Origin: Planctomycetota bacterium | GTDB taxonomy: Bacteria > Planctomycetota > Phycisphaerae > Phycisphaerales > UBA1924 | Assembly: GCA_014584315.1 (NCBI GenBank) | Contig: JACTNA010000016.1 | Coordinates: forward strand, 19,566-83,565 | DNA length: 64,000 nt | Direction of reading: 5' to 3' | Shown here: positions 48,626 through 64,000 of the stretch, piece by piece | Layout: each line of letters begins with the position of its first letter | Position numbering within the stretch: the stretch's first letter is position 1 | Notes under the pieces: model-generated | What the model was told of the DNA's origin: nothing | What the model saw: the letters and a program-made list of their open reading frames with translations, nothing else | The model's database searches: none | Made by a program: the position numbers and the translations under genes

Positions 48626-48736
48626 GCCCCGTCCTCCACGCTTGGGCGTCTTCGGGTCGCCGGCGGAAGCCGTCGGCTCCGAGCATCAACCGGGATGGTT
48701 CCTCCACCACGGGCGAAGGTGGGTGGGCGACCGCGT

Positions 48737-49114: not shown

Positions 49115-49213
49115 CGGTCGTCTCCTTCGCGTCCGACGGGGCAGCCGACTGCGGCTGGCTTCGGCCCGGCGGGCATCGTCTGCGGGGCGTTCATCGCCCC
49201 GTGGTTCGCGTCG

Positions 49214-49504: not shown

Positions 49505-49617
49505 GGGACCGCGCTCCAGCCCCCAGCACCGGCCTCTCGGGGGGGCGGGAAGGCTAGGCCGATGGGGCGGATGCTGCAAGTGCCACGGGCTGGCCCGCGG
49601 GCGGGAAGGCCCCGGGA

Positions 49618-50808: not shown

Positions 50809-51413
50809 CGGTCGTCCCCGTTCTGCGAAGCCTTCCACTTTCGGGCGAACGCGGCCACGGCGGCGTGCAGGCGCGACTTGACGGTGCCGAGCGGGATGCC
50901 GAGGTCGTCGGCGATCTGGGCGTAACTGAGCCGCTGGAAGTAGGCCAAGAGCAGGATCTCCCGCAGCGGCAGGGGCAGGTCGTCGAGGGCACGCTGCACC
51001 AGCCTGTCGCGTTCGCTCGCGTCGGCGGCGGCGTCCGGAGCGGGCACGTCGATCTCCATCAGATCGACGAACTGAACCCCCCCGCGCTCTTCACCGCCCC
51101 CCGCCCTTCCGACGGGGGCCGACAGTTCCATCTCCTGCCGGCGTCCCTTCCTACGCAGGTAGTCGCGGGCCTTGTTCGCGGCGATCGTGAATAACCAGGG
51201 ACGGAACCGCCGATCCACGTCGAACGAGTCGGCGGAGAGGTGAATCTGGAGAAAGGTCTCCTGGAAAACGTCGTCCGCGGCGGCCCGGTCGCCGGTCAGG
51301 CGGATCAGAAACCGGAGCAGGTCGTCGTGGTGGCGTTCGATGAGGGTCCGAAAGGCGTCCGACTCGCCCGTGCGGTAGGCCTCGACCAGTTGCTCATCGG
51401 TTCTGGGGTCCAA
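50805..51413 (-). CDS. ECF-type RNA polymerase sigma-70 factor
   Basis: TTG start. Region 2 DVFQETFLQIHLSADSFD..FRPWLFTIAANKARDYLRRK. Region 4 LSYAQIADDLGIPLGTVKSRLH. Confidence 0.88.
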   Translation of the reverse strand: MDPRTDEQLVEAYRTGESDAFRTLIERHHDDLLRFLIRLTGDRAAADDVFQETFLQIHLSADSFDVDRRFRPWLFTIAANKARDYLRRKGRRQEMELSAPVGRAGGGEERGGVQFVDLMEIDVPAPDAAADASERDRLVQRALDDLPLPLREILLLAYFQRLSYAQIADDLGIPLGTVKSRLHAAVAAFARKWKASQNGDDR

Positions 51414-51536: not shown

Positions 51537-51845
51537 TCAGACGACTTCGCCGACGGTACGGGCGAACCGGACCCCGGTCTCCGGCCCGAACCGCTCCGCG
51601 CCTTCGGCCCGGAGCGCGGGGGCGTGGTTGGCGAGGTAGTCGTCGAGGGCCTGCCGGGTGGGGAACACATAGCGCGTCTCGACGCGGATGGGGTCGGGCG
51701 GGTCGGTGACCCGGACGATCATCGCGCTGTGTGCCCCGGCGGCGACGACCGCGTCCACATGGCCGTCGCGGAGCCAGTCGAGATAGCGTTCGGCCGTCGG
51801 GCGGTCCGGGAGCGTCGCGGTTACGGTGTAGACGATGGCGGACAT
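51537..51845 (-). CDS. DUF4286-family protein
   Basis: MSAIVYTVTATLPDRPTAERYLDWLRDGHVDAVVAAG...YVFPTRQALDDYLANHAPALRAEG. Confidence 0.7.
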   Translation of the reverse strand: MSAIVYTVTATLPDRPTAERYLDWLRDGHVDAVVAAGAHSAMIVRVTDPPDPIRVETRYVFPTRQALDDYLANHAPALRAEGAERFGPETGVRFARTVGEVV

Positions 51846-51924
51846 GCCCCGAGCCTACCGCTCCCGGCCGCCGGACGGCGGCGAGGGGGCAATTCGGTCG
51901 GGCCTGGGGCGTTCTGCGGACGGC

Positions 51925-52548
51925 ATGCCACCCGCCTTGGAGCGAAGCGACCCGGCGACGGGCGTCGCCCCTGACGACGGGCGGCTGGCCGAGGTTCTGG
52001 CCGCGGCTTCACGCGGCGATGGGGACGCCTGGCGCGAGATCGTGGACCTGTACGCCAGGCGAGTGTTCGCGCTGGTCCACAGCCGGTGTCGTCGGCCCGA
52101 TCTGGCCGAGGAGGTCACGCAATCCGTGTTCGCCACAGTCGCCGCCAAACTCTCCCGAGGGGGGTACACCGAGCGGGGCCGCTTCGAGTCGTGGCTCTTC
52201 CGCGTGGCGATGAACCGCGCGCGTGACGAGATGCGCCGGCTGGCCCGGCAGGCGACGCCGACGGACCCGTCGGCGGTTGCGGCGGCCGTGGACCGCGCGC
52301 GGGAGAACGGGGAACGGACGAGCGACGACGGCTCGCTCGATGCGCTGCGGCGTGCGATGTCGAGCCTTCCCGCGGCCGACCGGGAGGTGGTCGAGTTGCG
52401 GCACCACGGCGGGCTGAGTTTCAGGCAGATCGCGGACCTCGTCGGCGAGCCGATGGGCACGCTGCTGGCCCGCCACCACCGGGCGTTGCGGAAGCTGCGG
52501 TCGATGATCGAACGCGATGCACCCGCGGACGAGGAGCAGACTCGATGA
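51925..52548 (+). CDS. ECF-type RNA polymerase sigma-70 factor
   Basis: ATG 51925; the listed start at 51835 would overlap the divergent gene. GDGDAWREIVDLYARRVFALV, FESWLFRVAMNRARDEMRR, LSFRQIADLVGEPMGTLLARHHRALRKLR. Confidence 0.85.
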   Translation: MPPALERSDPATGVAPDDGRLAEVLAAASRGDGDAWREIVDLYARRVFALVHSRCRRPDLAEEVTQSVFATVAAKLSRGGYTERGRFESWLFRVAMNRARDEMRRLARQATPTDPSAVAAAVDRARENGERTSDDGSLDALRRAMSSLPAADREVVELRHHGGLSFRQIADLVGEPMGTLLARHHRALRKLRSMIERDAPADEEQTR

Positions 52549-52964
52549 ACGCGCACGACAACAACGAGTTCGCCGGGATCGAGACCGCGCTCGACCGACT
52601 CGCGGAGTCGGATCGGGCGGCCGCGCCGGCGTCGCTCGAGTCGAACGTCTACCGTGCCTCGCGGGCGTCGCTCCGTTCGGGCGGGTGTGCGCGGGTTCGG
52701 ATCGGATGGGGACTGGGGGTTCGGCTCGCCGCGGCCGCGGTGCTGCTGGCGGGGACGATCGGCGTCATCTCGACACTGAACCGAGCGGGCCCGCAGCCCA
52801 CGCCGACGGCGAACGTGACGGCGGCGGCATTCGAGTCGTGGCTGGCGCTGGACGATCTGTTCGACGACGGGTTCGGGACGCGGCTGGGCGTGGTTTCGAC
52901 CGATGCCGACCGGCTCGCGCAGCCGGATTCGGATGACTGGGACGACCTGGAGGACGCTCTGTGA
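52545..52964 (+). CDS. Putative anti-sigma factor / membrane protein (139 aa)
   Basis: ATGA overlap with the sigma stop. Central TM GLGVRLAAAAVLLAGTIGVI. Acidic C-terminus. Confidence 0.6.
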   Translation: MNAHDNNEFAGIETALDRLAESDRAAAPASLESNVYRASRASLRSGGCARVRIGWGLGVRLAAAAVLLAGTIGVISTLNRAGPQPTPTANVTAAAFESWLALDDLFDDGFGTRLGVVSTDADRLAQPDSDDWDDLEDAL

Positions 52965-53782
52965 TGCGACACCGTGCTGCCACATTGCTGATCGTGATCG
53001 CGGGAGCGGCGCTTCCGGCGAGCGCCCAGCCGGATCGCCCGGCGCGCGAGGACCGGCCCGTGATGCGTCAGGCGGACCGCGAGGCGATGCGAGAGAGGCT
53101 TCAGCGTCGGCTTGACGAAACGCGTCATTTGGAGCAACGGCTCCTGGCGGCGCTGGACGCGCTGGACCGGGGCGAGGAACCGCCGGCGGTCGCCGAGCCG
53201 GGCGGGCCGATGCGCGGGGAGTGGCAGCGCGGACGCCCGTTCGAGCAGGAGCAACCGGCGGGCGGGGCGCCCCCCCCCGCGACGGACGAGGAAGTGATGG
53301 CGTTCCTGGACTCGGCCGCGCCGCCGATCGCTCGCAGGCTGCGTGAGGTGCGCGAAGCCGAGCCGTGGGTGGTCGAGCGGACGGTGCGACGGCTGGCGGG
53401 GCGGGTGGCGGAGATCCGTGTCGCCCGCGAGCACGATCCCGCGCTGGCGGACCTGATGGTCGCCGAGACGCGGAGCGGGCTGCTCGTGGCCGATGCGTTG
53501 CGCGACGTGCACCGCGCCGTGCTGGGCGGTGGCGACGAGGGCGCGTTGCGGGCGGCGTCGGCGTCGCTTCGGGGAGCGCTCGAAGCGCAGTTCGACGCGC
53601 GCATCGAGCGGCGCGAGCACGAGATCGTGTCGCTGGGCCGGCGCATCGAGGAGCTGCGGGCGGAACTCACGCGGCAGCACGCGGAGCGCGAGGCGTTCAT
53701 CGACCGCGCGGTCGAGCAGGCCGTCGAGCGCGCGAAGCGGTCGTCCTCGCGTCCCGACGAGCCTCGCGGCGGACGGCGCTGA
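52961..53782 (+). CDS. Secreted helical (coiled-coil-like) protein, third gene of the ECF module
   Basis: GTGATG start overlapping the upstream stop. Signal peptide MMRHRAATLLIVIAGAALPASA. Arg/Glu/Ala-rich helical remainder. Confidence 0.6.
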   Translation: MMRHRAATLLIVIAGAALPASAQPDRPAREDRPVMRQADREAMRERLQRRLDETRHLEQRLLAALDALDRGEEPPAVAEPGGPMRGEWQRGRPFEQEQPAGGAPPPATDEEVMAFLDSAAPPIARRLREVREAEPWVVERTVRRLAGRVAEIRVAREHDPALADLMVAETRSGLLVADALRDVHRAVLGGGDEGALRAASASLRGALEAQFDARIERREHEIVSLGRRIEELRAELTRQHAEREAFIDRAVEQAVERAKRSSSRPDEPRGGRR

Positions 53783-53791: not shown

Positions 53792-54187
53792 TCACGACAC
53801 GACCGATCCAGGCGCGACCTCCGCCGACGGGGTCAGCACGACGACCCGCTTCGATTCGCCTTCGCCCTGCTCGCTCGCCGCCAGGAGCATGCCGCGCGAC
53901 TCCTCGCCGCGGATGGTGCGCGGGGCGAGGTTGGCCACGATCACGATGTGACGCCCGACGAGGTCCTCCGGCTTGTAGTGCTCGCGGATGCCGGCGCAGA
54001 TCTGCCGCGGCGTGCCGCTGCCGTCGTCGACCTGGAGTTTCAGAAGGCGGTCGGCGTTCGGGTGCGGCTCGGCCGTCACGACGCGGGCGACGCGCAGGTC
54101 GAGGCGGGCGAAATCCTCGAAGGTGATGGTGGGCTTGGCGGGCGATGCCTGAGTCGTGTCGGCGGCAGGCGCGGGCGTGTCGGACAT
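53792..54187 (-). CDS. tRNA-binding domain protein (CsaA/Trbp111/MetG C-terminal-like)
   Basis: FEDFARLDLRVARVVTAEPHPNADRLLKLQVDDGSGTPRQICAGIREHYKPEDLVGRHIVIVANLAPRTIRGEESRGMLLAA. Confidence 0.88.
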   Translation of the reverse strand: MSDTPAPAADTTQASPAKPTITFEDFARLDLRVARVVTAEPHPNADRLLKLQVDDGSGTPRQICAGIREHYKPEDLVGRHIVIVANLAPRTIRGEESRGMLLAASEQGEGESKRVVVLTPSAEVAPGSVVS

Positions 54188-54256: not shown

Positions 54257-55150
54257 CTACTCCTCCGGGCCGGGCCTTACCCAAGCGCCGCCACGCCACA
54301 GACTTCGGTCGGGATCGACGCCGAGCGAGGCGGCGAAGGTCTCGGGGTCGAGGTCGCGGAGCGGCGCGCCGCCGTCCACGGCGAGTTGTGCCGCCCATGA
54401 GCGGTGAACGCCCTCGAGCAGGCGCGATTCGAGCCGCAACTGGTCGATGAGTTCGGCGGCGGACATCTGCGGGCCGGGATCCCCGCGGCAGGTGGCGCAG
54501 AGTCGGTAACTGGGCGGGTCGGTGCCGGGCACGAACACGGCCCGCTCGTTGCGGCACTCCGGGCAGGGCCAGGCGTCGGCGTATCGCTCGGTGTTCCAGA
54601 GGACGCTGCCAGCGCCGGCGAGTCCGACCAGCCTCCCGTAACGCTCGAGCGCCTCGCGGACGCCCGGCCTGCGCAACAGTTCCCGGGCGCGGATGCCCTG
54701 CCCGGCGCGTGCCTCGCCCATCGCCTCGGCGGCCGCGAGCGCGATCTCGGATCGGAGGGCTTCGTCGCGGCCGCGCATCCACTCGGGCGCGGCGTAGCGT
54801 CGATCGAGGCGGCTTGCCATCGCCGAGAGCCAGCGCTGCTCGGACTCCACTCGGGCGATCGCGGCCAACCCGACGCACGCGCTCGCGCCAACCCCGGCCG
54901 ACCAGTTGTGCCGGCGATCGTGCTCGAAGGCGAGGGCGTAGAGCGTGCGCGCCAGTTCGATCTGGACGGGATCGTCGGCCTCGTAGGCAACTTCCTCCGC
55001 GAGCATCAGGTAGCCGCGCGGGTCGGAGGGTGTGAGTGCGGCGAGGCGCTCTTCGAGGCGCGGAACCGTGAGCGTCGTGAGCGTGCTCGGTTGATCCGGC
55101 TGAGCCAGAGCGACGGCGACGCCAAGGACGGCCGCGTCGAGGATGCTCAT
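54257..55150 (-). CDS. Secreted hypothetical protein with CPxC...CxxC zinc-ribbon-like motif (297 aa), last gene of the ExbBD-associated operon
   Basis: Internal ATG 55148-55150 (ATGA overlap with the upstream stop). MSILDAAVLGVAVALAQP signal-like N-terminus. WPCPECRNERAVFVPGTDPPSYRLCATCRG (54488-54565). Confidence 0.65.
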   Translation of the reverse strand: MSILDAAVLGVAVALAQPDQPSTLTTLTVPRLEERLAALTPSDPRGYLMLAEEVAYEADDPVQIELARTLYALAFEHDRRHNWSAGVGASACVGLAAIARVESEQRWLSAMASRLDRRYAAPEWMRGRDEALRSEIALAAAEAMGEARAGQGIRARELLRRPGVREALERYGRLVGLAGAGSVLWNTERYADAWPCPECRNERAVFVPGTDPPSYRLCATCRGDPGPQMSAAELIDQLRLESRLLEGVHRSWAAQLAVDGGAPLRDLDPETFAASLGVDPDRSLWRGGAWVRPGPEE

Positions 55151-58020
55151 GGGAGTTCCTCCCCGAAACGGATCGCCCAGAGTCGGGCGATCGCGAGTTC
55201 CGTCGCGGCGATCTGGTGGAGCACGTGGGTTGCGGTCCGTCGCGTGCCCGCCAGTTCGGAGAGCACGCCGGCGGCGTCGGCTGCGCGCTCGGGACGCTCG
55301 ACCGCGATCACGGCCGAGAGGAGCTCGGCGACGGCGAGCTGCTCGACGGCGAACCGCTGGACGGGGCCGCCCGCGACGGCGAGCCTCGCGGTGCGGCGGC
55401 GTTCGATCTCTTCGGCGCGCACCACGCCGGAGCGGCCTGCGGAAAGATCCGCGGCGAGTTGCTGCCACTGGGCGCGGAGTCGGGCCGCGCTCTCGTCGGC
55501 GGCGGCGGGCGTGCCATCGGCGGAGGATGGCGCGAGGGACGAGGAGGCCATGCCCGCGTAGGTTTCCGCGAGCAGCGGAGCGAGGCGGTCGACGCGCCCC
55601 ACCTCTCCTTCGGCGGCGAGCAGTTCCATCAGACGCTCGACCAGCACGCGCCGGGTCTTGAGTTTCCAGTCCGGATCGCGGACGGACACCACGCTCGTGC
55701 CCGTCATCTGTGCCACGAGTTCCGCGTTCTGGATCGTGCGGGGCATCGTGGGCGCCTGTTCGAGGAGGCCCTTGAGGGCCGAGGCGTTCATACGGAGCGC
55801 GAGCAGGGCGTCTCGGGCGGCCTGGCGGACCTGCGCGGGCGAGCCTCGCACGGCCTCCTGCGCCAGCACCTCGCCGCTGATGGGGTCGAGGATCGAGCCA
55901 CCGCCCAGTTCGCGGAGGAGGGCGACGCGGGCATCGGCGTCGCGCTGGGCCGAGGCGTACCGCACGGCCCATGCTCCGTCGTAGCGTCCCGGCGCGACGA
56001 CGGCCTGATCGCCGACGCTGCCGCGGACGGTTTCCATCGCGTCCTTGACGGGCGCATCGAGCCTGTCGATGAGCAGGGCGGCGGCGTCGAGTCCGCCCGA
56101 CCAGCGCAGCGAAGCGGCGGCGTTCAGCCGGGCCGCGAGCACGGCGCGGGCGAGATGATCGGTCGGCGTGCGGTCGTCGTGCGCATCGCGCTCGACGCGG
56201 CGCAGTTGCTGGAGCCACGAGTCGGCGAGGTCGTCGCGCTGGGCGGCGGTCGGCAGGCCCCACGCCGTCTCGTACCTGTTCCGCAGGTCGCGCCGCTGCG
56301 CGTCGATCGACCGGGCGGGCAGCGACATGAGCGGGTCGACGCCTTCGGCGTTCGATCTCGTCGCGAGCGCGGTCGTGATGACGTGCAGATCGGCGTTCGA
56401 GACGCGCGGATTGCCGAAGGCCTGAACGAGCCACGTTCGCGACCGATCGCCCCGCCGCCACGTGAGGGCGAGGGTGAGTTCGACCATCGCGTCGGCGATC
56501 GCGGGGTCAACGTCCGGCTCCGGCCCCGCGAGGGTGATCGCGTCGAGGCCGGCGAGCAACAACTCGATCCGGCGGGCCTGCTGCTCCGGCGCGGCGGCGT
56601 CGACCGCGCGGACCCACCGCCGCCAACGCTCGAGTTCCGTGTCGCGGTCGGGACGATCGCCCAGCACGAACCGCCGGGGCAGCAGACCGAGCGCGGCGAC
56701 CGCGCCGGCGTCGAAGGTGCGCCCCGCGGCCGGGCCTGCGCCCCCGATCGCCTGACGGAGCGCATCCTCAATGACTCGCGACACCACGGCGGACAACCCG
56801 CTCTCCCCGCTCAACCGCACGAGCGTGCCGGCCGACCAGACCGCCGGCCACACGCCGTCCGCGTCCGGGGCCGCGCCTCCGTGCATCGCCACCGAGCCGG
56901 CGGCGACCACTTCCGCAGCGGCGGAGGCGATGAGCGGGACGGCGGACGCGCTGTGCATGAACTCGACCACCGAGTTGGTGGCCGCTCGCTGGCGATCGGG
57001 CGCGAGCAGGCACCAGTGGGCCGCAACATCCAGCGCTGACGAACGGAAGAGGGCGAGCGCCTCGCCGGGGTCGAGCGCGAGGCCATCGACCGCGGCGTCG
57101 AGACCGCGCAGCGCGGCGTTCAGTTCGGATGCGGACGGGGCGCCCGTCGGGCGCGGCCGGGCGTCGCTCGTCACGCTCGGTCTCAACGGGAACGGCTCGA
57201 CTCGTGCAGGCTCCGCGGACGCCCGTGCGGGCGGCGGCGGGGGAGGCGGGTCCGGCGGCGTGCGCGGCACGGTCAGCAGGATGGCGGCGAGCGATCCGAG
57301 CACGGCCAGCGCGACGAACCCGCCAATGAGGACGAACACACCGCGACGGAGCAACCGTTTCGCCGGGTCGTCCTCCTCGGGCCGGACCATCTCTGGCGGG
57401 CGGGGATCGGCGGGCCGCGGAGGCTCGTCGGCGAGCGGTTTCGGCAGGCCCGCAAGCCGAACGGGAACAGGCGGCGAGTCGGCGCGAAGCGCGGGCACGG
57501 GCGCGGGACGCGGCACGGCCCGAGCGCTCGCGGCGCCGCGGCTGCTGAGCCGACGCAGCGCACCGACGATTTCGTCGGGCGACGCGTCGCGAGCGCGGGC
57601 CAGGAGCATCAGGCGGTGCAATGACCCCCGGTTCCACCCGCCGTAGCGTGCGAGCGTGAGCAGCGCATCGTGTTCGAGGAGGACGCCGCGTCCGGCCTCC
57701 GAGGTCGGCGCGGCGAGCGCGGCCTGCTGCGCGGCGGCCTCGCCCCCCCACCGCCGCGCGAGGTGCACGCGAACAGCGGGGTCGAGCAGTTGGGCCGCGG
57801 CGGCGTGGAGCGCGAGGCGCACTTCGTCTGCTTCGGGCGTCTCGCTCTGGTGGTGGGCGGCGAGCGCGACGAGGCGGCGCTCCAGAGCCGCGATGACGGC
57901 CGAGTCGTCGGCCACGCCCGGCCTCAGCCCGAGCAGCGCGAACGGACCGCCGCGGGCCGAATCCTCGCCGAGGAAGCGGGCGATGAGCGAAGCGCCGGCG
58001 GGGTGCGGCATCGCGCTCAT
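55147..58020 (-). CDS. 957-aa bitopic membrane protein with TonB/TolA-like TM plus poly-Pro spacer, hypothetical
   Basis: Internal ATG 58018-58020 (ATGA overlap with the upstream stop). About 225-aa cytoplasmic part with the J-domain-like PFALLGLRPGVADDSAVIAALERRLVALAAHH. TM GVFVLIGGFVALAVLGSLAAILLTV followed by PRTPPDPPPPPPPARA (57223-57342). About 690-aa helical periplasmic part. Confidence 0.7.
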   Translation of the reverse strand: MSAMPHPAGASLIARFLGEDSARGGPFALLGLRPGVADDSAVIAALERRLVALAAHHQSETPEADEVRLALHAAAAQLLDPAVRVHLARRWGGEAAAQQAALAAPTSEAGRGVLLEHDALLTLARYGGWNRGSLHRLMLLARARDASPDEIVGALRRLSSRGAASARAVPRPAPVPALRADSPPVPVRLAGLPKPLADEPPRPADPRPPEMVRPEEDDPAKRLLRRGVFVLIGGFVALAVLGSLAAILLTVPRTPPDPPPPPPPARASAEPARVEPFPLRPSVTSDARPRPTGAPSASELNAALRGLDAAVDGLALDPGEALALFRSSALDVAAHWCLLAPDRQRAATNSVVEFMHSASAVPLIASAAAEVVAAGSVAMHGGAAPDADGVWPAVWSAGTLVRLSGESGLSAVVSRVIEDALRQAIGGAGPAAGRTFDAGAVAALGLLPRRFVLGDRPDRDTELERWRRWVRAVDAAAPEQQARRIELLLAGLDAITLAGPEPDVDPAIADAMVELTLALTWRRGDRSRTWLVQAFGNPRVSNADLHVITTALATRSNAEGVDPLMSLPARSIDAQRRDLRNRYETAWGLPTAAQRDDLADSWLQQLRRVERDAHDDRTPTDHLARAVLAARLNAAASLRWSGGLDAAALLIDRLDAPVKDAMETVRGSVGDQAVVAPGRYDGAWAVRYASAQRDADARVALLRELGGGSILDPISGEVLAQEAVRGSPAQVRQAARDALLALRMNASALKGLLEQAPTMPRTIQNAELVAQMTGTSVVSVRDPDWKLKTRRVLVERLMELLAAEGEVGRVDRLAPLLAETYAGMASSSLAPSSADGTPAAADESAARLRAQWQQLAADLSAGRSGVVRAEEIERRRTARLAVAGGPVQRFAVEQLAVAELLSAVIAVERPERAADAAGVLSELAGTRRTATHVLHQIAATELAIARLWAIRFGEELP

Positions 58021-60719
58021 GGCGACCCCTTCCCGTCGGTGGTCGGCGTCGGCGCGGGAGGCAGTGCGGCGTCGAGTTCGCGCAGTTTCGCGCCCCACGG
58101 CTCGGGGCCGAACTGCGGGAAGAGCGTCTTGTGCTGGTCCAGCACGATGCGGGCGCGGGGGGCATCGGTCGCGGCGAGCAGGCGGAGGGACTCGCAGCGT
58201 GCCTCGAACCACTCGTCGCTGCCCTGGGCGAGGCCGGCGAGCAGCGTGCGCCAGCCTTCCAGCGCGGCTTCGGCGTCGCCCGCTTCCTCGCTCAGGCGCG
58301 AGTAGCGGCGCAACGAGCGTGCGGTGTGCCTACCGAGATCGATCAGGCGTGCGTCGAGACGCAGGGCGGCGTCGCGAGCGGCCTCGTCGCGCTCCAGCCG
58401 CCAGAGCGCGTCGGCGGCGTCCGCGATCGCCTCGACGAGCGACGAGACCTGCTGGTTGGAGATCGACGACTCGATCGGCTCGAATCCCGCGAGAATGCGC
58501 GATCCGAAGCGCACGACTTCCCGCGCCGCGTAGGCGTCGTCGGGATTGGCCCGGCGCTGCTCGAGCGCGACCCGGTACACGAGGCGGTCGGCGGCCTCGG
58601 CGAAGCGGCCCCCGATCTCCTGGAGTCGGCGCGAGGCGGCGTCGATCCTGGGACGGTCGCGGTGAACCAGCGCGATCTGGAGTCTGCGGTACTCGATCTC
58701 CTCCTCCAGGGCGTCGAGATTGAGGCCGAGATAGGCACGGACCTCCTCCAACGTGGTCAACGCGCGCTCGGCGCGGCGCACGTCGGGCGCGGCGGCGGAC
58801 ATCAGCACGTCGAGCAACTGCCGGACGCGGAGCACGATGAAATCGGCGGCCTCGCCCGCTTCGACCGGCGTGCCGTTCATCACGGTCCATCGGTCGCGCT
58901 CGATCAACTCCTCGGCGACGGCGGCGAACCGCGCGGCCATCGCCCCGCGATCGGCGGGACGGGCGACGCGGCACTGCGTGTAGAGCAACCTCGCCGCGTG
59001 CCGACGGGCCGTGTCGTAGAGCGCGGACTCTCGCGGCACGGCGAGCAGCACCTCGATGGCCTCGGCGTCGTCGATCAAACCTCCCTCGACGCGGCGCAGA
59101 AGGAGCCTCGCGGCGCGCTCGGTCCTCGGGAACGACTGGAGGAACACGCCGGCAAGGCGGTCGCGCCGCGGGACGAGCGACAGCCGCCCCCCCTCGACGG
59201 CCCGATCGAGCGCGACGATGGCGTACCAGAGCGCTTCCTGGCGATCGTCCTCGCTCGGCGCGAGCGAGGCCGCGACCTCGTAGGCGTCCGCCGCCGGCTC
59301 CGGCTCCCCCGCGTAATAGAGCGACAGTCCGCGGAGCAGCGCGGCTCGCGCTCGTTCCTTCGGGAACTTGCTCGCGTCCTGAGCGTCCACGCCGAGCAGG
59401 AGCGCACGGGCGGCCTCGCGGTAGCGATTCGCGACGGCCTCGTCGGCGGTCGGGGCCTCGCCGTCCTCGCCGGCCTTGGCGTGGTTCTCGCGGGCTCGCT
59501 CGTAGGCGCGCAGGCCGCGCACGAACTGGACGATGAACCCCTCGTTGCCGATGGGCGCGGTGCCGTAGCGTCCGACGAGGTCGATCACGTGGCCGACCTC
59601 GCCGCGCGCGACGAGGTCGCCGAGCGCCGTCTGGGCGAGCGTCTCCAGGAGGCGGTCACGCCCGGCGAGACCGCGTGCCTTGGGATCGTCGAGCGCTTCG
59701 AGCACGACGACGGCGAGCAGTCTGGCGTCGGCGGTTTCGAGGCGCGTCTCGCTCGCGTCCCCGCCGCGCCGAGCGCGGGCGATCATCAGGTCGAGGTCCG
59801 CCCAGCGGCGGGCGGCGCCGAGGACCGCGATGCGTCGCGTGAAGAGTTGCCTGCGGACGGACTCGGGCACCTCCGGCGATTCGACGAGCACGTCGAGCCA
59901 GCGCACGGCCTCGACGTCCTTGCCCTGCACCGAGGCCGCGAGCGCAACGCCCATCGCGGCGCGGGCGACGTGCTCGAAGCGCAGGAGCGGCGCGGGCAGG
60001 CGCTCGACGGTCGGCTCGCGGTTGCCGGGTGCGTTCAGGAGCCAGCCGAAGTCCCGCTTCGCCTGTTCGGCGAGGCGCACGTCGCCGCTGACAAGGGCGA
60101 GGTAGTAGCGCGACCAGCCGGCGTAGTACATGGCGAGCGATCGGAGCCGGCGCGCGTCCGCGAGTTGCTCCTTGACGGCCTGCGGGTCGGGGTCGCTGCC
60201 CCGCGACTCGCGGCGTTCGAGCGACTCGACGCGCCGATGGACCTTCGTGCCGGCGTCCTCGAAGATCGGCAGCACCGAGCGCAGCACGCGCTCCGCCTCG
60301 CTTCGCTCCTCGGGGCCGGCGATGCGGAGCCGGTGCAGTTCGGCGAGTTCCTCGCCCTTGAGGTACGACGCCTTGGCGAGATTGATGCGGAGCTCGAAGG
60401 ACTCCGAGTCCGGCACCTTGAGCAACAGTTCACGGCTGAGCGCCTCGGCACGAGCTCGCTGCTCGGGTGTGGCCGCATCGGTGAGCAAACGCACGTAGAG
60501 GGTCCCGAGGCGCTCGGCGATGGCGATCCGCTCGTCGCCGAGCGTCGAGTCGAGACGCTCCTGCAGGCGGGCGGCGAGCAGGTCGGTCAGCCCGCGATCG
60601 GCGAGATAGCGCTCGACGGCGTCCTCGCCCGCCGATTCGGGCTGCGCCGCGGCCACGCCCGCGACGAGCGCGAGGAACGCGAGGAGGACCGCGAGGATGG
60701 CGTCAGTTCGCCGGCACAT
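58017..60719 (-). CDS. 900-aa secreted helical-repeat (TPR-like by composition) protein, hypothetical
   Basis: Internal ATG 60717-60719. Signal peptide MCRRTDAILAVLLAFLALVAGVAAA. Long Ala/Leu/Arg/Glu-rich helical repeats (e.g. RSLAMYYAGWSRYYLAL, RGLSLYYAGEPEPAADAY). The listed N-terminal extension is Ser/Pro junk. Confidence 0.7.
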   Translation of the reverse strand: MCRRTDAILAVLLAFLALVAGVAAAQPESAGEDAVERYLADRGLTDLLAARLQERLDSTLGDERIAIAERLGTLYVRLLTDAATPEQRARAEALSRELLLKVPDSESFELRINLAKASYLKGEELAELHRLRIAGPEERSEAERVLRSVLPIFEDAGTKVHRRVESLERRESRGSDPDPQAVKEQLADARRLRSLAMYYAGWSRYYLALVSGDVRLAEQAKRDFGWLLNAPGNREPTVERLPAPLLRFEHVARAAMGVALAASVQGKDVEAVRWLDVLVESPEVPESVRRQLFTRRIAVLGAARRWADLDLMIARARRGGDASETRLETADARLLAVVVLEALDDPKARGLAGRDRLLETLAQTALGDLVARGEVGHVIDLVGRYGTAPIGNEGFIVQFVRGLRAYERARENHAKAGEDGEAPTADEAVANRYREAARALLLGVDAQDASKFPKERARAALLRGLSLYYAGEPEPAADAYEVAASLAPSEDDRQEALWYAIVALDRAVEGGRLSLVPRRDRLAGVFLQSFPRTERAARLLLRRVEGGLIDDAEAIEVLLAVPRESALYDTARRHAARLLYTQCRVARPADRGAMAARFAAVAEELIERDRWTVMNGTPVEAGEAADFIVLRVRQLLDVLMSAAAPDVRRAERALTTLEEVRAYLGLNLDALEEEIEYRRLQIALVHRDRPRIDAASRRLQEIGGRFAEAADRLVYRVALEQRRANPDDAYAAREVVRFGSRILAGFEPIESSISNQQVSSLVEAIADAADALWRLERDEAARDAALRLDARLIDLGRHTARSLRRYSRLSEEAGDAEAALEGWRTLLAGLAQGSDEWFEARCESLRLLAATDAPRARIVLDQHKTLFPQFGPEPWGAKLRELDAALPPAPTPTTDGKGSP

Positions 60720-61119
60720 ACGTCCGCTTCGTGAAGCCCGCGTCAACGCCGGCCTGGAGCGCCACCGCCGCGGCGTCCCAGGGCACGTCGCCGGAGACCC
60801 GGATGAAGACGCCGCCGTCCTTGGGCAGTTCGCGCAGGACGGCGACGAGTTGGCCGCGCTCGGTGAGCACGTGCTGGCCGATGCGGAAGACCGGGGCCGT
60901 CCCGGCCATCTCGACGCGGACGATCTGGGGTTGGAGGTCCGCGGCCGCTCCGCCGCGGCGTTCAGCGGCGAGCGCGCTGCCGACCTGGGACTCGCGCTTG
61001 GTGAAGGTCGTGGTGACCATGAAGAAGATGAGGAGGAGGAAGACAACGTCGATCATGGTGGTCATGGGCAGCCGCCCGATCTCCTCGCCTTCGCGCTCTG
61101 TGGGTCTCGTGAGTCTCAC
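60703..61119 (-). CDS. Biopolymer transport protein ExbD/TolR family (copy 2)
   Basis: GTG start (GTGA overlap). PMTTMIDVVFLLLIFFMVTTTF is the ExbD TM signature. Confidence 0.88.
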   Translation of the reverse strand: MRLTRPTEREGEEIGRLPMTTMIDVVFLLLIFFMVTTTFTKRESQVGSALAAERRGGAAADLQPQIVRVEMAGTAPVFRIGQHVLTERGQLVAVLRELPKDGGVFIRVSGDVPWDAAAVALQAGVDAGFTKRTYVPAN

Positions 61120-61550
61120 GGGGGCCCTCCCGGAACGTCGGCGGTGCCGACCTGCCAGCGTCGCACGCCGAGGGCCGCGAGCCGATCCACCAGATCATTG
61201 ACCGTCGCGGCACGGGCGGCGCGGTCGGCGCGGATGAGCAGCTCGACGGCCGCGGCGTCGCCGCCCCGCTTGGCGATCTCGGCCTGGAGCGTGCGGACCG
61301 CGCCGTCGAGCGAGACCGGCTCGTTCGCGATGAGGATCGTTCCGTCGCGGCGGACGTCCACGACGACCAGGCCGGAAGCGACGGCGGCGTTCTTCTCGCC
61401 CGGCTGTTCCGGCAGGTCAATGGGCGAACGGATGAGTTGCGAAAACTGGGAAGTGAAAAGAAAGAAGATGATGAGTTGCAGCACCACGTCGATCATGGGC
61501 GTCAGATCGAAGCCTCGCTGCTTGCGTCCTGTCCGGGGCGACAGGTTCAT
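61116..61550 (-). CDS. Biopolymer transport protein ExbD/TolR family (copy 1)
   Basis: Internal ATG 61548-61550 (ATGA overlap). GFDLTPMIDVVLQLIIFFLFTSQF. Confidence 0.88.
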   Translation of the reverse strand: MNLSPRTGRKQRGFDLTPMIDVVLQLIIFFLFTSQFSQLIRSPIDLPEQPGEKNAAVASGLVVVDVRRDGTILIANEPVSLDGAVRTLQAEIAKRGGDAAAVELLIRADRAARAATVNDLVDRLAALGVRRWQVGTADVPGGPP

Positions 61551-62308
61551 GCCGTGCCGACTCCGGTGCGTGGGCGCGGGGCGGGCTTGGCGGCTGGCTG
61601 TGTCGCTCCGGGCGCGGATGCTCCGGCGCTCTCGAGGTGCGAGGCGAGATCGTCGATGGTGCGTCCGATCTCCTGAGCCATGGCGTCGATCCGGTTGCGG
61701 AGCCAGGCGTAGGCGGCGGTGCACGGGATCGCGACGATGAGGCCCATGACGGTGGTGATGAGCGCGACGGAGATGTCGCCCGCGAGCTCATCCGGCCGCG
61801 CGACGCCCTCGCTGGTGCTGAGGGTATCGAACGCGCCGACCATGCCCACCACGGTGCCCAGCAGCCCGAGCATCGGCGCGACCGTGGCGATCAGCCCGAT
61901 GGATTCGGTCGACCGCTGGAGTTTCGACACCTCCTGCTGGCCGGCTTCCTCGAGCGCGGAGCGCAGTTCGAGGAATCCGAAGGCCGAGCGGCGGCATCGG
62001 AGCAATGCCGCCCCGAACACGCGCGTGAGGAACGAGCCGTTCTCCTCGGCGGTGCAGTAGGCGATCGTGCCCTCCGTGTCGCTGGCCCGCAGCATCTCGT
62101 GCAGGCGGGCGACGTGAACGGCCGGGGCGAGGTGCTTCATGCGAAGGCGGACCACCTGCGCGATGATGAGCACCACCGCGACGAACGAGAGGGCGATGAT
62201 CAGGAAACCGACCTGCCGCCCCTGCGAGATGTAGTCCAACAGCGACTTGTCGGCCGCGGCGTCCTGGGCGAGCGTGAACAGGCCGGGCACGAGCGTGGAG
62301 TGGGTCAT
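61547..62308 (-). CDS. MotA/TolQ/ExbB proton-channel family protein
   Basis: Internal ATG 62306-62308 (ATGA overlap). IGLIATVAPMLGLLGTVVGMVGAF and DISVALITTVMGLIVAIPCTAAYAWL. Confidence 0.9.
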   Translation of the reverse strand: MTHSTLVPGLFTLAQDAAADKSLLDYISQGRQVGFLIIALSFVAVVLIIAQVVRLRMKHLAPAVHVARLHEMLRASDTEGTIAYCTAEENGSFLTRVFGAALLRCRRSAFGFLELRSALEEAGQQEVSKLQRSTESIGLIATVAPMLGLLGTVVGMVGAFDTLSTSEGVARPDELAGDISVALITTVMGLIVAIPCTAAYAWLRNRIDAMAQEIGRTIDDLASHLESAGASAPGATQPAAKPAPRPRTGVGTA

Positions 62309-63447
62309 CGTCGAACGGTCTCCGTTGGAAGGGGGTCGGCCGCGGCCTGCTCGCGGGGCGCCTCGCCGTGGCGGCGGATGGCGTCCCAGTCGCAGGCGGG
62401 ATGCCCGGCGAATCGGGTGAGGAGTTCGGCGCGAAGCCTCGACGCCCCGCCCGCGTCGCCCAGCGATTCGAGGGCGACCGCGGCGTCCGCGAGGGCGATG
62501 CCCGCGAGGTAGGGCAACTCGCGTTCGAACGAGGCGGGGACGGTGAGGAGTTCGATCACGCCCAACCGGCGCGCCGAGTCGTCCGGTTCCATGAGCAGCG
62601 AGCGACCCACGCCGAGCCGCGCCCACGCCTGCTGCCATGACGGTGCGCTCGGGTCCAAGAACGGCGCGAGCGACGCTCGCGCGGCGGCGCGGGCCGCGGT
62701 GTCGGTCGCTGTCGTTGCGGTGACGATGTGCAGGACGAACTCGACCCCCGGCTCGCGCGAGGTGACGGCCGGCATCTCGGCTTCGACGCGCGACGCTGCG
62801 CGTGCCGCGTGCAGATACAGGGCGGCGTATGCCTCGGCACGGGTGGAGTACGGCGCGCGTGCGGTGAGGGAACCGCCGGTCGCCAGAACGCGGACCGCCG
62901 GGCCTGGCACCCACAACGGGGGCAGGTCGGCGACGAGGCCGGTCTCCGCGTCGACGACGGATCCGAGTGCCGTGTCGGCGCGGACGGCGGGCGTGCCGCT
63001 CGACTCCCGGGCGCGGAGCCAGGTGATCCACGGCGCGACGGCGAGAGACTGTGCGCTGCGTGCGAGGCGGCACCGCAACAGGCCGAAGGCGATGCGCTCG
63101 CCCGTGGGGCCGCGGTTGTCGTGCATCGACTCGAAGAGTTCCTCGAACAGCGGCTCCGCGCCGGGGACGTCGCCCCGTTCGAGTCTGGCCCTCGCTCTCC
63201 AGGCCCGTTCCGCCATCGGCATGTAGGCCTCGGCGATGGCGGCGTGCTCCCCGCGCACGGCGAGCACCGTGTCCCACGGCACGACAACCGGGGAGGCGCC
63301 GCCGTCGCGAACCGCGATGCCGTCCGACGAGACGGCGACGATGACGCCGGGGGGCAGCGTCGCTCGCCCGCGCAGGGTCAGGATCGGCTCGTCGGCGCGT
63401 GCGGCGGCGGTGAGGGCGATCGCGGCGATGCAGCCGAGGCGGATCAC
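62305..63447 (-). CDS. Secreted hypothetical protein (380 aa)
   Basis: Signal peptide MIRLGCIAAIALTAAARA. ATGA overlaps on both sides. I recognise no motif. Confidence 0.65.
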   Translation of the reverse strand: MIRLGCIAAIALTAAARADEPILTLRGRATLPPGVIVAVSSDGIAVRDGGASPVVVPWDTVLAVRGEHAAIAEAYMPMAERAWRARARLERGDVPGAEPLFEELFESMHDNRGPTGERIAFGLLRCRLARSAQSLAVAPWITWLRARESSGTPAVRADTALGSVVDAETGLVADLPPLWVPGPAVRVLATGGSLTARAPYSTRAEAYAALYLHAARAASRVEAEMPAVTSREPGVEFVLHIVTATTATDTAARAAARASLAPFLDPSAPSWQQAWARLGVGRSLLMEPDDSARRLGVIELLTVPASFERELPYLAGIALADAAVALESLGDAGGASRLRAELLTRFAGHPACDWDAIRRHGEAPREQAAADPLPTETVRR

Positions 63448-64000
63448 GGCCCACCCCCCGCGACGAAGGTGTAGGTGCCGCCGGACTCGCGCGCGATGCG
63501 CCGCATGAGCGGCTCGGCGTCGCGCGAGACGAAGCAGATGCAGTGGATGGGGACGCGATGCTCGGCGTTGAGGCGCTCGATCTCGCCCGCGACCTGTTCC
63601 GGAAACTCGCCGTCGGTCATGAAGAAGATGGCGTCCGGCCGCGGGCGCAACTGGAAGGCCAGGTGGAAGGCCGGTCCGGGATTGGTGCCCCCGCCGGACT
63701 GGATGGCCATGATCTCTCGGCGCGACGACCGCTTGTTTCGCTCGTTGGCCTGGAGCCAGCGGACCTCTTCTCCGAGCGGGGTCGCGCTGGTGGAGAACGT
63801 GATGGGGAGGTAGTGGGCGTTCTCGAGCAGGCCGTCGATGGACTTGGCCAGTTCGTCGCGGAGGCGTTCGATCTTGCCGCCGAAGCTCATCGAGCCGGAG
63901 ATGTCCACGATATAGACGAATCGCGAGCCTGTGGCCTCCGCGCCGAAGAAGCCGGCACCCCCCGCGCCTCCGCCGCCCTCGCCCATGCCCGGCCCGCTGC
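63444..64000 (-). CDS. von Willebrand factor type A (VWA) domain protein, 5' end probably beyond the window
   Basis: MIDAS residues FVYIVDISGSM, GGGTNPGPAF, IFFMTDGE. The frame is still open at 64000, so the listed ATG at 63986 (within a Gly-rich stretch) need not be the true start. Confidence 0.8.
   Translation of the reverse strand, partial: SGPGMGEGGGGAGGAGFFGAEATGSRFVYIVDISGSMSFGGKIERLRDELAKSIDGLLENAHYLPITFSTSATPLGEEVRWLQANERNKRSSRREIMAIQSGGGTNPGPAFHLAFQLRPRPDAIFFMTDGEFPEQVAGEIERLNAEHRVPIHCICFVSRDAEPLMRRIARESGGTYTFVAGGGP

What the first reader, a model, noticed from the sequence alone, without database searches (positions are those of the whole stretch)
54257..64000. Candidate undescribed PMF-driven envelope machine: VWA / secreted protein / ExbB / ExbD / ExbD / giant helical-repeat protein / TonB-TolA-like giant / Zn-ribbon protein
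At least eight same-strand genes are fused by start/stop overlaps. These are ATGA at 63444-63447, 62305-62308, 61547-61550, 58017-58020 and 55147-55150, GTGA at 61116-61119, and a 17-nt overlap at 60703-60719. That implies one translationally coupled complex, and the first gene continues beyond the window. The core is one MotA/TolQ/ExbB channel and two distinct ExbD/TolR proteins. I see no TonB C-terminal domain, TonB-dependent receptor, TolB, Pal or OmpA-like peptidoglycan-binding motif. The partners are a VWA (MIDAS-containing) protein, a 380-aa secreted protein, a 900-aa secreted helical-repeat protein, a 957-aa bitopic protein with a poly-Pro spacer, and a 297-aa secreted Cys4 protein. The 1 TolQ-like plus 2 TolR-like stoichiometry, with Pro-rich bitopic and large TPR-like proteins, recalls Tol-Pal and the Myxococcus Agl-Glt/Nfs machines. 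The accessory proteins show no motif I can assign, and a VWA component is not part of those systems.
Basis: partly seen in the sequence, partly recalled or inferred. Interest (0 to 1): 0.85.

Follow-up and report, generated by a model that had tools for sequence, protein, structure and literature searches.

The report
vWA force-transducer operon, Phycisphaerae eight-gene variant
This is a conserved eight-gene operon of Phycisphaerales (Planctomycetota) that joins a proton-driven TolQ/ExbB-TolR/ExbD motor to a membrane-anchored von Willebrand-A protein acting in place of TonB/TolA; that core was described by computer analysis in 2025, but three large partner proteins here are undescribed and the function is unknown.

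Summary
Eight same-strand genes with start/stop overlaps lie at 54257-64000 on the minus strand, all with GC3 of 0.84-0.91. The first gene (335 aa) starts about 450 nt beyond the window, after divergent pyrH-frr, so the operon has exactly eight genes.

The order is conserved in 45 of 52 Phycisphaerales loci with enough flank, down to 27-30% identity.

The TonB/TolA-like component is not the 957-aa protein. It is the VWA protein: its transmembrane helix carries S-x3-H (His in 59/59, Ser in 56/59), followed by a conserved strand, a linker and a VWA domain with an intact MIDAS site. The motor residues are invariant.

This matches the "vWA motor-driven force transducers" (TPR + tolQ-like + two different tolR-like genes + anchored vWA) proposed in silico in Mol Biol Evol 2025 (PMC12204202). 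No phenotype is known for that class.

Three things look new:
- a 900-aa TPR-like secreted protein;
- a 957-aa bitopic protein with a highly conserved cytoplasmic domain and a periplasmic ARM/HEAT solenoid;
- a secreted Cys4 zinc-ribbon protein.

All three are restricted to Phycisphaerae and match no Pfam or PDB entry. Verdict: a new variant of a recently proposed kind, of moderate to high interest.

The parts
63444..64000 (-). P1, C-terminal 184 aa of a 335-aa anchored vWA force transducer. The gene continues about 450 nt beyond the window. Layout: cytoplasmic tail, TM helix with S53-x3-H57-x6-A64, conserved strand V[ED]FAVMT[ED]xEL, acidic/Pro linker, Gly-rich stretch, VWA domain.
   Evidence: Pfam VWA_3 1.7e-8, and VWA_3 in 37/39 family members. 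Full length from L002:7858-8865. H57 in 59/59, S53 in 56/59, A64 in 49/59. hhalign to the Tichowtungia vWA transducer: probability 93.6%.
63891..63905 (-). MIDAS D-x-S-x-S (D183-I-S185-G-S187) of P1. Together with T256 and D280 it gives a complete metal-ion-dependent adhesion site.
   Evidence: D183, S185, S187, T256 and D280 are invariant in 39 sequences.
62305..63447 (-). P2, 380 aa. Signal peptide, a small N-terminal beta domain and a weakly TPR-like helical domain.
   Evidence: No Pfam hit for the window protein. Weak recurrent TPR hits in the family (TPR_14 in 8/39). Alignment A3. No PDB match.
61547..62308 (-). P3, 253 aa. TolQ/ExbB-like proton-channel subunit, the presumed pentamer of a 5:2 motor.
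   Evidence: PF01618 4.9e-29. The best NCBIfam hit is TolQ at 79 bits, below its 221-bit cut-off. T152, T186 and P195 are invariant in 59/59.
61116..61550 (-). P4, 144 aa. First TolR/ExbD-like subunit. The proton-binding Asp is D21 (61488-61490).
   Evidence: PF02472 7.6e-18. D21 in 59/59 ungapped. The family HMM prefers the first TolR of a Kiritimatiellota-type locus (72 vs 51 bits).
60703..61119 (-). P5, 138 aa. Second, different TolR/ExbD-like subunit. The proton-binding Asp is D24 (61048-61050).
   Evidence: PF02472 2.9e-13. D24 in 60/60. Similar to P4 only over 35 aa of the TM region. The HMM prefers the second TolR of the Kiritimatiellota-type locus (53 vs 40 bits).
58017..60719 (-). P6, 900 aa. 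Secreted, all-helical, TPR-like protein.
   Evidence: Signal peptide by inspection. TPR_6 in 11/40 members and other weak TPR hits. The profile matches consensus TPR proteins in PDB at E 4e-6, positions 784-841. Present in every related locus.
55147..58020 (-). P7, 957 aa, bitopic. Cytoplasmic helical domain (12-163), disordered stretch, TM helix 219-250 (57271-57366), Pro-rich linker, periplasmic alpha-solenoid 297-951.
   Evidence: AF2 mean pLDDT 86.5. Best Foldseek matches are beta-catenin and importins, E about 2e-3. No Pfam hit in 34 members. 991 representatives at 50% identity.
57778..57840 (-). Most conserved stretch of the operon's unknown proteins: TPEADEVRLALHAAAAQLLDP (P7 residues 61-81), in the cytoplasmic domain.
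   Evidence: Nine positions are invariant across the 34-sequence alignment A1 (six in the 120-sequence A6) and most of the rest are conserved at 90% or more. Weak J-domain-like register: hhalign probability 40-49% and a PDB DnaJ hit at E=2.
54257..55150 (-). P8, 297 aa. Secreted: TPR-like helical hairpins (23-193), a Cys4 beta-hairpin W-P-C196-P-E-C199 ... C218-x-T-C221-x-G-N-P-G (54488-54565), and a C-terminal part.
   Evidence: AF2 mean pLDDT 86.4. No Foldseek match in PDB, best E 0.25. Cys positions invariant or nearly so. Weak zinc-ribbon Pfam hits in the family.
53792..54187 (-). tRNA_bind (CsaA/Trbp111-like) gene, 70 nt downstream on the same strand. A conserved neighbour, probably not part of the machine.
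   Evidence: PF01588 1.3e-32. Present downstream in most related loci.

Best explanation
The operon encodes a proton-motive-force-driven envelope machine of the 'vWA force transducer' class.

Proposed working model:
- P3 forms the TolQ/ExbB-like channel, presumably a pentamer.
- P4 and P5 form a heterodimeric TolR/ExbD-like plug.
- P1 docks on the outside of the motor through its transmembrane helix (S53-x3-H57), as TonB and TolA do.
- P1 reaches across the periplasm with an acidic/Pro-rich linker. It uses a MIDAS-containing VWA head, instead of a TonB/TolA C-terminal domain, to grip an acidic residue of a partner and pull on it.
- The four helical-repeat proteins are the partners or scaffold: secreted P2, P6 and P8, and the inner-membrane-anchored P7.
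- P7 additionally places a very conserved domain in the cytoplasm.

Shown by sequence and models: domain identities, conserved motor and MIDAS residues, the S-x3-H helix, topology, operon conservation, and homology of the motor and vWA parts to the published class.

Inferred: the 5:2 stoichiometry, the P4/P5 heterodimer, physical association of P2 and P6-P8, and any force transduction.

The physiological role is unknown. The operon is present in one copy at every related locus retrieved and sits next to pyrH-frr. Planctomycetes are reported to lack Pal. I therefore favour a housekeeping envelope role (outer-membrane/cell-wall coupling or division-linked remodelling) over nutrient uptake or motility.
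For: - Pfam: VWA_3, MotA_ExbB and ExbD twice.
- Motor residues invariant: ExbB-like T152, T186 and P195; ExbD-like D21 (P4) and D24 (P5).
- P1 TM helix: H57 in 59/59, S53 in 56/59, A64 in 49/59. A conserved post-TM strand V[ED]FAVMT. An intact MIDAS (D183, S185, S187, T256, D280 invariant).
- The P1 profile matches the Tichowtungia transducer with hhalign probability 93.6%, and a Kiritimatiellota-type vWA at 43 bits.
- That protein shares S-x3-H-x6-A (sequence).
- P4 and P5 match the first and second TolR of that locus respectively.
- Gene order is conserved in 45/52 loci with mostly overlapping junctions. It also holds in the most distant P8 relatives.
- The paper's supplement, citing Witwinowski et al. 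2022, lists Planctomycetes as lacking pal.
Against: - No experiment exists for any member of the class. PMC12204202 states that no deletion phenotypes are reported.
- Only S and H of the SHLS motif are conserved. The Leu and second Ser are not.
- The 'motor box' of P1 is inferred from a conserved motif, not from a model.
- P2 shows no detectable similarity to the partial TPR protein of the Kiritimatiellota-type locus.
- A subclade (L036, L037, L039-L042, L076, L077) keeps P1-P2-P6-P7-P8 but has no motor genes in the operon. The accessory proteins can therefore be encoded apart from the motor.
- No outer-membrane component (beta-barrel or lipoprotein) is encoded in the operon, so what is pulled is unknown.
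- Export of P2, P6 and P8 rests on inspection of their N-termini and a crude hydrophobic-run count, in which about two thirds to three quarters of homologues score.
Confidence: 0.7

Rival explanations
1. A gliding or adhesion machine of the Myxococcus Agl-Glt type. A TolQ + 2 TolR motor would move a complex of TPR proteins and present a VWA adhesin to the surface.
For: - One TolQ-like and two different TolR-like proteins, as in AglRQS (my knowledge of that system).
- Several TPR-like proteins and a VWA domain are present.
- PMC12204202 itself speculates on a gliding role for vWA transducers.
Against: - The VWA domain here is anchored in the inner membrane by a TonB/TolA-type helix. It is not an outer-membrane lipoprotein like CglB.
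- No TonB_C-type GltG/J-like protein, no outer-membrane beta-barrel and no lipoprotein is seen in the operon.
- The operon sits in one copy next to housekeeping genes at every related locus retrieved.
- Gliding is not known for Phycisphaerae (my knowledge).
Confidence: 0.1
2. A Bat-like (Bacteroides aerotolerance-type) set of membrane-anchored VWA and TPR proteins that merely sits beside an ordinary ExbB-ExbD module.
For: - A TM-anchored VWA protein plus TPR-like proteins.
- A MoxR-type AAA ATPase gene lies about 5 kb upstream on the source contig.
- In one subclade the VWA/TPR genes occur without the motor genes.
Against: - No BatA N-terminal domain, no DUF58 and no MoxR gene inside the operon.
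- The conserved S-x3-H helix and the interleaved, overlapping gene order (P1-P2-motor-P6-P7-P8) tie the VWA protein to the motor.
- The subclade without motor genes still keeps S-x3-H.
Confidence: 0.06
3. A TonB-type energiser for outer-membrane import, with the VWA protein acting as an unusual TonB that opens TonB-dependent transporters or another uptake pore.
For: - An ExbB/ExbD-type motor and a TonB-like TM helix.
- The class was found in a species lacking discernible TolA and TonB.
Against: - No TonB_C domain in any of the eight proteins or their families.
- No TonB-dependent receptor among the window ORFs scanned.
- The best NCBIfam similarity of P3 and P4 is to TolQ and TolR, not ExbB and ExbD.
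- A VWA/MIDAS head does not bind by beta-strand addition to a TonB box (general knowledge).
Confidence: 0.07
4. The genes are neighbours without forming one machine. The ExbB-ExbD module and the large helical proteins would have unrelated functions.
For: The motor genes are absent from the operon in one subclade. No direct interaction evidence exists.
Against: - Overlapping start/stop codons at nearly every junction.
- The order is kept at 27-35% identity of P7 and in the most distant P8 relatives.
Confidence: 0.05

Closest known systems
vWA motor-driven force transducers with a TolQ-like and two TolR-like proteins and a TPR gene (PMC12204202, Mol Biol Evol 2025; seed locus Tichowtungia aerotolerans, Kiritimatiellota)
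   Same: - An inner-membrane-anchored vWA protein whose TM helix carries S-x3-H (and A at H+7 in both).
- A Gly-rich stretch and an FFG motif before the VWA domain, with hhalign probability 93.6%.
- One TolQ-like and two different TolR-like genes, with first-to-first and second-to-second best matches.
- An adjacent TPR-like gene.
- PVC superphylum.
- Function unknown.

   Different: - One vWA gene here, placed first, against two in tandem placed last.
- The MIDAS is intact and invariant here, but degenerate in the Tichowtungia protein (LDANK) and the related metagenomic protein (IDAQK).
- The VWA protein is 335 aa against about 475 aa.
- P2 shows no detectable similarity to the partial TPR protein of the related locus.
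- Three more conserved genes (P6, P7, P8) are fused to the operon here. They are not mentioned in the paper.
Tol-Pal system (TolQ-TolR-TolA-TolB-Pal-CpoB)
   Same: - A PMF-driven TolQ/TolR-type motor, for which TolQ and TolR are the best NCBIfam similarities.
- A transducer with an S-x3-H helix.
- A TPR protein in the set (CpoB-type TPR_6 hits in P6 are weak).
- A housekeeping-like genomic setting.
   Different: - No TolA C-terminal domain, TolB beta-propeller or Pal/OmpA-like domain.
- Two different TolR-like proteins instead of one.
- A VWA head.
- Scores are far below the TolQ/TolR equivalog cut-offs.
TonB-ExbB-ExbD
   Same: Motor family and the S-x3-H motor-docking helix.
   Different: No TonB_C domain, no TonB-dependent transporter nearby, two ExbD-like proteins, and four large helical-repeat partners.
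Myxococcus Agl-Glt gliding complex
   Same: A TolQ + 2 TolR stoichiometry of genes, many TPR proteins and a VWA protein in the system.
   Different: The VWA protein is anchored in the inner membrane and carries the motor-docking helix. No outer-membrane barrels or lipoproteins. No TonB_C-type proteins.
Bat (BatA-E) VWA/TPR aerotolerance operon
   Same: Membrane-anchored VWA plus TPR proteins.
   Different: No BatA N-terminal domain, MoxR or DUF58 in the operon. The motor genes are interleaved with the VWA and TPR-like genes.

Membership tests
vWA motor-driven force transducer system (PMC12204202) | N-terminal TM helix with the TonB/TolA-type SHLS motif, in particular the essential His | tested here: met
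   S53 in 56/59 and H57 in 59/59. The distal Leu and Ser of SHLS are not conserved. A64 at H+7 is conserved in 49/59 and is also Ala in the Tichowtungia transducer.
vWA motor-driven force transducer system (PMC12204202) | Disordered or Pro-rich linker with a short beta-strand 'motor box' after the TM helix | tested here: inconclusive
   A conserved V[ED]FAVMT[ED]xEL motif lies 17 residues after the helix (A87 in 56/59), followed by an acidic/Pro linker of about 60 aa. No structure model of P1 was made.
vWA motor-driven force transducer system (PMC12204202) | C-terminal vWA domain in place of the TonB/TolA C-terminal domain, homologous to the seed family | tested here: met
   VWA_3 in 37/39 members. 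hhalign against Tichowtungia transducer 2: probability 93.6%, E 2e-7. HMM against a related metagenomic vWA: 43 bits.
vWA motor-driven force transducer system (PMC12204202) | [quoted passage not shown] | tested here: met
   P3, P4 and P5 are adjacent and overlapping. P4 and P5 match the first and second TolR of locus L081 respectively.
vWA motor-driven force transducer system (PMC12204202) | Co-occurring TPR gene | tested here: inconclusive
   P2 and P6 are TPR-like only by weak recurrent hits. P2 shows no similarity to the partial TPR protein of L081.
TonB system | TonB C-terminal domain (PF03544) on the transducer, and a TonB-dependent receptor partner | tested here: not met
   No TonB_C hit in any protein or family scan. 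No receptor among the window ORFs scanned. The whole genome was not searched.
Tol-Pal system | TolA C-terminal domain, TolB beta-propeller and Pal (OmpA-like lipoprotein) in or near the cluster | tested here: not met
   None found. One of 34 P7 members gave TolA_C at E=0.16, which is noise. TolQ and TolR equivalog scores are far below cut-off (79 vs 221 bits and 45 vs 127 bits). Planctomycetes are reported to lack pal.
Bat aerotolerance operon | BatA N-terminal domain on the VWA protein, with MoxR ATPase and DUF58 genes in the operon | tested here: not met
   No such hits in P1 or its family. The operon holds no AAA or DUF58 gene.
Zorya and other MotAB-based defence systems | ZorA/ZorB-type proteins with ZorC/D or other effectors | tested here: not met
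   PADLOC gave only a weak generic MotA-domain hit of P3 to ZorA (E 0.002) and nothing for the other seven proteins.
J-domain proteins (for the P7 cytoplasmic domain) | J-domain fold with an HPD loop between helices II and III | tested here: inconclusive
A PDB DnaJ hit has E=2. No Pfam DnaJ hit in 34 members. H56 is invariant in the N-terminal alignment A8 and at least 90% conserved in A1 and A6; the family consensus reads HP, but the Asp of HPD is not conserved.
Agl-Glt gliding machinery | Glt outer-membrane barrels and lipoproteins, TonB_C-type GltG/J, and the CglB outer-membrane VWA adhesin | not tested
   Only the absence of TonB_C, and of any Pfam-recognisable outer-membrane domain in the operon proteins, was seen.

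The most novel reading that the evidence does not exclude
The eight proteins form a Phycisphaerae-specific trans-envelope machine. It would do the job of Tol-Pal (outer-membrane/cell-wall coupling and constriction during division) in a lineage reported to lack Pal. By my own knowledge the lineage also lacks FtsZ. The PMF-driven vWA transducer would pull on a periplasmic TPR/ARM scaffold. The conserved cytoplasmic domain of P7 would link that scaffold to a cytoplasmic partner, giving a cytoplasm-to-outer-membrane connection not seen in Ton or Tol systems.
Probability: 0.2. Interest if true: 0.8.

Novelty: new variant of a known kind. Interest (0 to 1): 0.55.

Why it matters
Only two force-transducing partners of ExbB/TolQ-type motors are understood: TonB for import and TolA for outer-membrane stabilisation. 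A third, vWA-headed class was proposed in 2025 purely from genomes, with no partner or phenotype.

This operon offers the richest version of that class seen here:
- an intact, invariant MIDAS site, which predicts metal-dependent gripping of an acidic ligand;
- four co-translated, conserved candidate partners;
- one partner that reaches into the cytoplasm.

It is found in Phycisphaerales, which are planctomycetes. Their envelope organisation and division machinery are open questions, and they are reported to lack Pal. The operon therefore gives concrete, testable candidates for what a vWA transducer pulls on. It may also show how these bacteria couple their membranes. If the function turns out to be ordinary, it still adds three sizeable protein families; for P7 alone about 990 representatives at 50% identity have no annotation.

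Tried and rejected
Rejected. Its TM helix is not conserved. There is no TonB_C or TolA_C. The periplasmic domain is an ARM/HEAT-like solenoid.
- **Profile searches of the P7, P7 N-domain, P8, P6 and P2 families against PDB sequences.** Nothing significant except consensus TPR for P6.
- **Foldseek of the P8 and P7 models against PDB.** No match for P8 (best E 0.25). Only generic solenoids for P7.
- **J-domain idea for the P7 N-domain.** Only a weak lead.
- **DnaJ-type CxxCxGxG for P8.** Only 2/37 members at E 0.003, and generic zinc-ribbon hits otherwise.
- **Defence system.** PADLOC negative.
- **Looking outside Phycisphaerae.** The word-indexed protein searches and the genome scan returned only Phycisphaerae or unclassified Planctomycetota records, apart from one MAG labelled Leptolyngbya sp. 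PLA1. The exhaustive representative search carries no taxonomy. The lineage restriction of P6-P8 is therefore likely but not proven.
- **The reference Tichowtungia-type locus.** Only a 4.5-kb metagenomic contig could be fetched. I could not see whether P6-P8-like genes follow there.
- **P2 against that locus's partial TPR protein.** No similarity.
Full report
**1. The observation**

On the minus strand of 54257-64000 there are eight consecutive reading frames. All have GC3 of 0.84-0.91, against 0.46-0.60 at codon position 2. That is the signature of real genes in this 70% G+C sequence.

- ATGA at 62305, 61547, 58017 and 55147.
- GTGA at 61116.
- A 17-nt overlap at 60703-60719.
- One correction: 63444-63447 is GTGA, not ATGA.

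Pfam finds VWA_3 in the first protein, MotA_ExbB in the third and ExbD in the fourth and fifth. Pfam and NCBIfam find nothing in the other four.

**2. Extension and organism**

The exact ExbB-like protein is on record on many contigs, including NCBI GCA_023384195.1 JAHDXJ010000014.1. That contig shows the following:
- The VWA gene is 335 aa and is the first gene.
- It is preceded by divergently transcribed pyrH and frr.
- The set is therefore complete at eight genes, here called P1 to P8.
- A tRNA_bind gene follows 70 nt downstream, and then genes on the other strand.

Homologues of P7, P1 and P8 all come from Phycisphaerales, Phycisphaeraceae, Phycisphaerae or unclassified Planctomycetota MAGs, with one exception: a single MAG labelled Leptolyngbya sp. 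PLA1. They are annotated 'hypothetical' or 'VWA domain-containing'.

A scan of one genome per GTDB species with the P7 profile returned 71 loci with the same taxonomy.

**3. Conservation**

I ran tblastn of all eight proteins on these loci and extracted the ORFs.
- The order P1-P2-P3-P4-P5-P6-P7-P8 holds in 45 of 52 loci with enough flank, down to 27-30% identity of P7.
- Most junctions overlap. Start codons in those loci were chosen by a heuristic.
- The most distant P8 relatives (30-32% identity) sit in the same operon beside pyrH.
- One subclade (L036, L037, L039-L042, L076, L077) has P1-P2 directly followed by P6-P7-P8, with no motor genes in the locus.
- The P7 family has 991 representatives at 50% identity with E of 1e-3 or better, 735 of them at 1e-30 or better. 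All of the best 150 that had also turned up in the annotated search carry no Pfam domain there, and none of the 34 members scanned matches a Pfam family.

**4. Which protein is the TonB/TolA analogue**

That does not hold.
- The P7 membrane helix is not conserved in sequence.
- No member has TonB_C or a credible TolA_C hit.
- Its AF2 model (pLDDT 86.5) shows, in order: a cytoplasmic helical domain, a disordered segment, one TM helix, a Pro-rich disordered segment, and a 650-residue alpha-solenoid. The solenoid's best PDB neighbours are beta-catenin and importins.

P1 fits the role instead.
- It has a short cytoplasmic tail and a TM helix with S53-x3-H57. His is present in 59/59 sequences and Ser in 56/59, including the subclade without motor genes.
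- A conserved strand-like motif, V[ED]FAVMT[ED]xEL, follows the helix.
- Next come an acidic/Pro linker and a Gly-rich stretch.
- The VWA domain has invariant MIDAS residues: D183, S185, S187, T256 and D280.

S-x3-H is the motor-docking motif of TonB and TolA (PMC12204202).

**5. The motor**

- P3 keeps the TolQ/ExbB Thr and Pro positions (T152, T186, P195) in 59/59 sequences.
- P4 and P5 each keep the proton-binding Asp (D21 and D24) in all sequences.
- P4 and P5 resemble each other only over 35 residues of the TM region. They are two different TolR/ExbD-like proteins.
- NCBIfam similarity is highest to TolQ and TolR but far below the equivalog cut-offs.

**6. Literature**

A full-text search found one directly relevant paper, 'Origin and Evolution of Bacterial Periplasmic Force Transducers' (Mol Biol Evol 2025, PMC12204202). 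[quoted passage not shown]
- Inner-membrane-tethered proteins with an SHLS-type TM helix, a disordered linker with a motor box, and a vWA C-terminal domain.
- Found in Proteobacteria, Planctomycetes, Verrucomicrobia, Bacteroidetes and Rhodothermaeota.
- AF3 models dock the helix on the motor via the conserved His.
- Function unknown, with no phenotypes reported.

The paper's supplement gives the Tichowtungia aerotolerans transducer sequences. Citing Witwinowski et al. (2022), it notes that Planctomycetes lack pal. No other paper in the library treats vWA transducers or this Phycisphaerae operon.

**7. Direct comparison with that class**

I transcribed Tichowtungia transducer 2 from the supplement table; one row is a residue short.
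- The P1 family profile aligns to it with hhalign probability 93.6% (E 2e-7). The aligned region covers the Gly-rich stretch, the FFG motif and the first half of the VWA domain.
- It also has S-x3-H-x6-A.
- Its MIDAS is degenerate (LDANK).

A metagenome scan with that sequence fetched a 4.5-kb contig (L081) with the order TPR-like gene, tolQ, tolR, tolR, vWA, vWA.
- My family HMMs score its TolQ at 149 bits and its vWA at 43 bits.
- P4 prefers the first TolR (72 vs 51 bits). P5 prefers the second (53 vs 40 bits). This suggests the TolR duplication is shared.
- P2 has no detectable similarity to the partial TPR protein there.
- The contig is too short to show whether P6-P8-like genes exist there.

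**8. The four unknown proteins**

- **P2.** It has a signal peptide, a small beta domain and weak, recurrent TPR signals.
- **P6.** It has a signal peptide and weak, recurrent TPR signals. Its profile matches consensus TPR proteins at E 4e-6.
- **P7, cytoplasmic domain.** This is the best-conserved part of the protein. TPEADEVRLALHAAAAQLLDP is almost invariant across the 120-sequence alignment. It aligns in register with J domains (LLG, HP, LxDP..R). The Asp of HPD is not conserved.
- **P8.** AF2 gives pLDDT 86.4. It has TPR-like hairpins, a beta-hairpin carrying WPCPEC...CxTCxGNPG, and a C-terminal part. It has no Foldseek match in PDB and only weak zinc-ribbon hits.
- **Localisation.** That P2, P6 and P8 are exported is inferred from their N-termini. 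In a crude hydrophobic-run count, about two thirds to three quarters of homologues score.

**9. Other readings tested**

- **Bat-type operon.** There is no BatA N-domain and no MoxR or DUF58 gene in the operon.
- **TonB uptake system.** There is no TonB_C and no receptor among the window ORFs scanned.
- **Tol-Pal.** There is no TolB, Pal or TolA_C.
- **Defence system.** PADLOC is negative.
- **Agl-Glt-like gliding.** It shares the 1 TolQ + 2 TolR pattern, TPR proteins and a VWA domain. Here, however, the VWA protein is the inner-membrane transducer, and no outer-membrane components are encoded.

**10. Most likely mechanism**

A TolQ/ExbB-like channel with a P4/P5 plug converts proton flow into movement of P1, which is docked by its S-x3-H helix. 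The P1 VWA head uses its MIDAS metal to hold an acidic residue of a partner. The co-translated helical-repeat proteins P2, P6, P8 and the periplasmic solenoid of P7 are the obvious candidates. P7 adds a conserved cytoplasmic domain.

- Shown: the residues, the domain layout, the homologies and the conservation.
- Inferred: the stoichiometry, the contacts and the force transduction.
- Physiological role: unknown. I favour a housekeeping envelope function because the operon is present in one copy at every related locus retrieved, sits beside pyrH-frr, and Pal is reported absent from Planctomycetes.

**11. Verdict**

It is a PMF-driven machine, but the transducer was misidentified, and the core was proposed in silico in 2025.
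- The eight-gene Phycisphaerae architecture is not described in that paper. It differs in three ways: three extra conserved proteins, a single transducer gene, and an intact MIDAS.
- I rate it a new variant of a known (recently proposed, experimentally untested) kind, with interest 0.55.

Noticed in passing
L036, L037, L039, L040, L041, L042, L076, L077 (related loci): A Phycisphaerales subclade keeps P1-P2 directly followed by P6-P7-P8 but has no ExbB/ExbD genes anywhere in the fetched locus. P1 still has S-x3-H there. The motor must be encoded elsewhere or shared.
   Followed up: partly
window 53792-54187 (-): A tRNA_bind (CsaA/Trbp111-like) gene lies 70 nt downstream of P8 on the same strand. 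It is conserved in that position in most related loci. Whether it is co-transcribed is unknown.
   Followed up: partly
window 50805-51413 (-) and 51835-53782 (+): Two ECF-type sigma factor genes lie here. The second is followed by two small ORFs without Pfam hits (139 aa and 273 aa) and is convergent with the operon. A similar sigma + two-ORF set recurs downstream in several related loci (L001, L005, L006).
   Followed up: no
window 19498-23553 (+): A 1351-aa ORF with strong coding signal (GC3 0.92) and no Pfam hit, followed immediately (about 30 nt downstream) by the only tRNA gene of the window (tRNA-Gly at 23582-23654).
   Followed up: no
window 24887-32099 (-): A Cus-like heavy-metal RND efflux operon: an outer-membrane factor (OEP), a membrane-fusion protein with HMBD metal-binding repeats, and an AcrB-family pump. 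It shows the organism has an outer membrane.
   Followed up: no
window 10245-15082 (-): Two paralogous T2SSE/MshEN secretion or pilus ATPases (578 and 580 aa) with a gene between them. A pseudopilin-like ORF with an N_methyl motif lies at 45185-45949.
   Followed up: no
L002:1927-2853 (source contig, about 5 kb upstream of P1, beyond the window): A MoxR-type AAA ATPase gene next to a zf-CDGSH gene. It is not in the operon, but worth noting because MoxR proteins often partner VWA proteins.
   Followed up: no
window 61547-62308 (-): The exact 253-aa ExbB-like protein is indexed in 208 blocks of the public assembly collection. This organism, or very close strains, is therefore sampled in many sequencing runs.
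   Followed up: no
window 47873-49945 (+) and 49618-50838 (-): Two long overlapping ORFs (690 and 406 aa) without Pfam hits. Which one is the real gene was not resolved.
   Followed up: no
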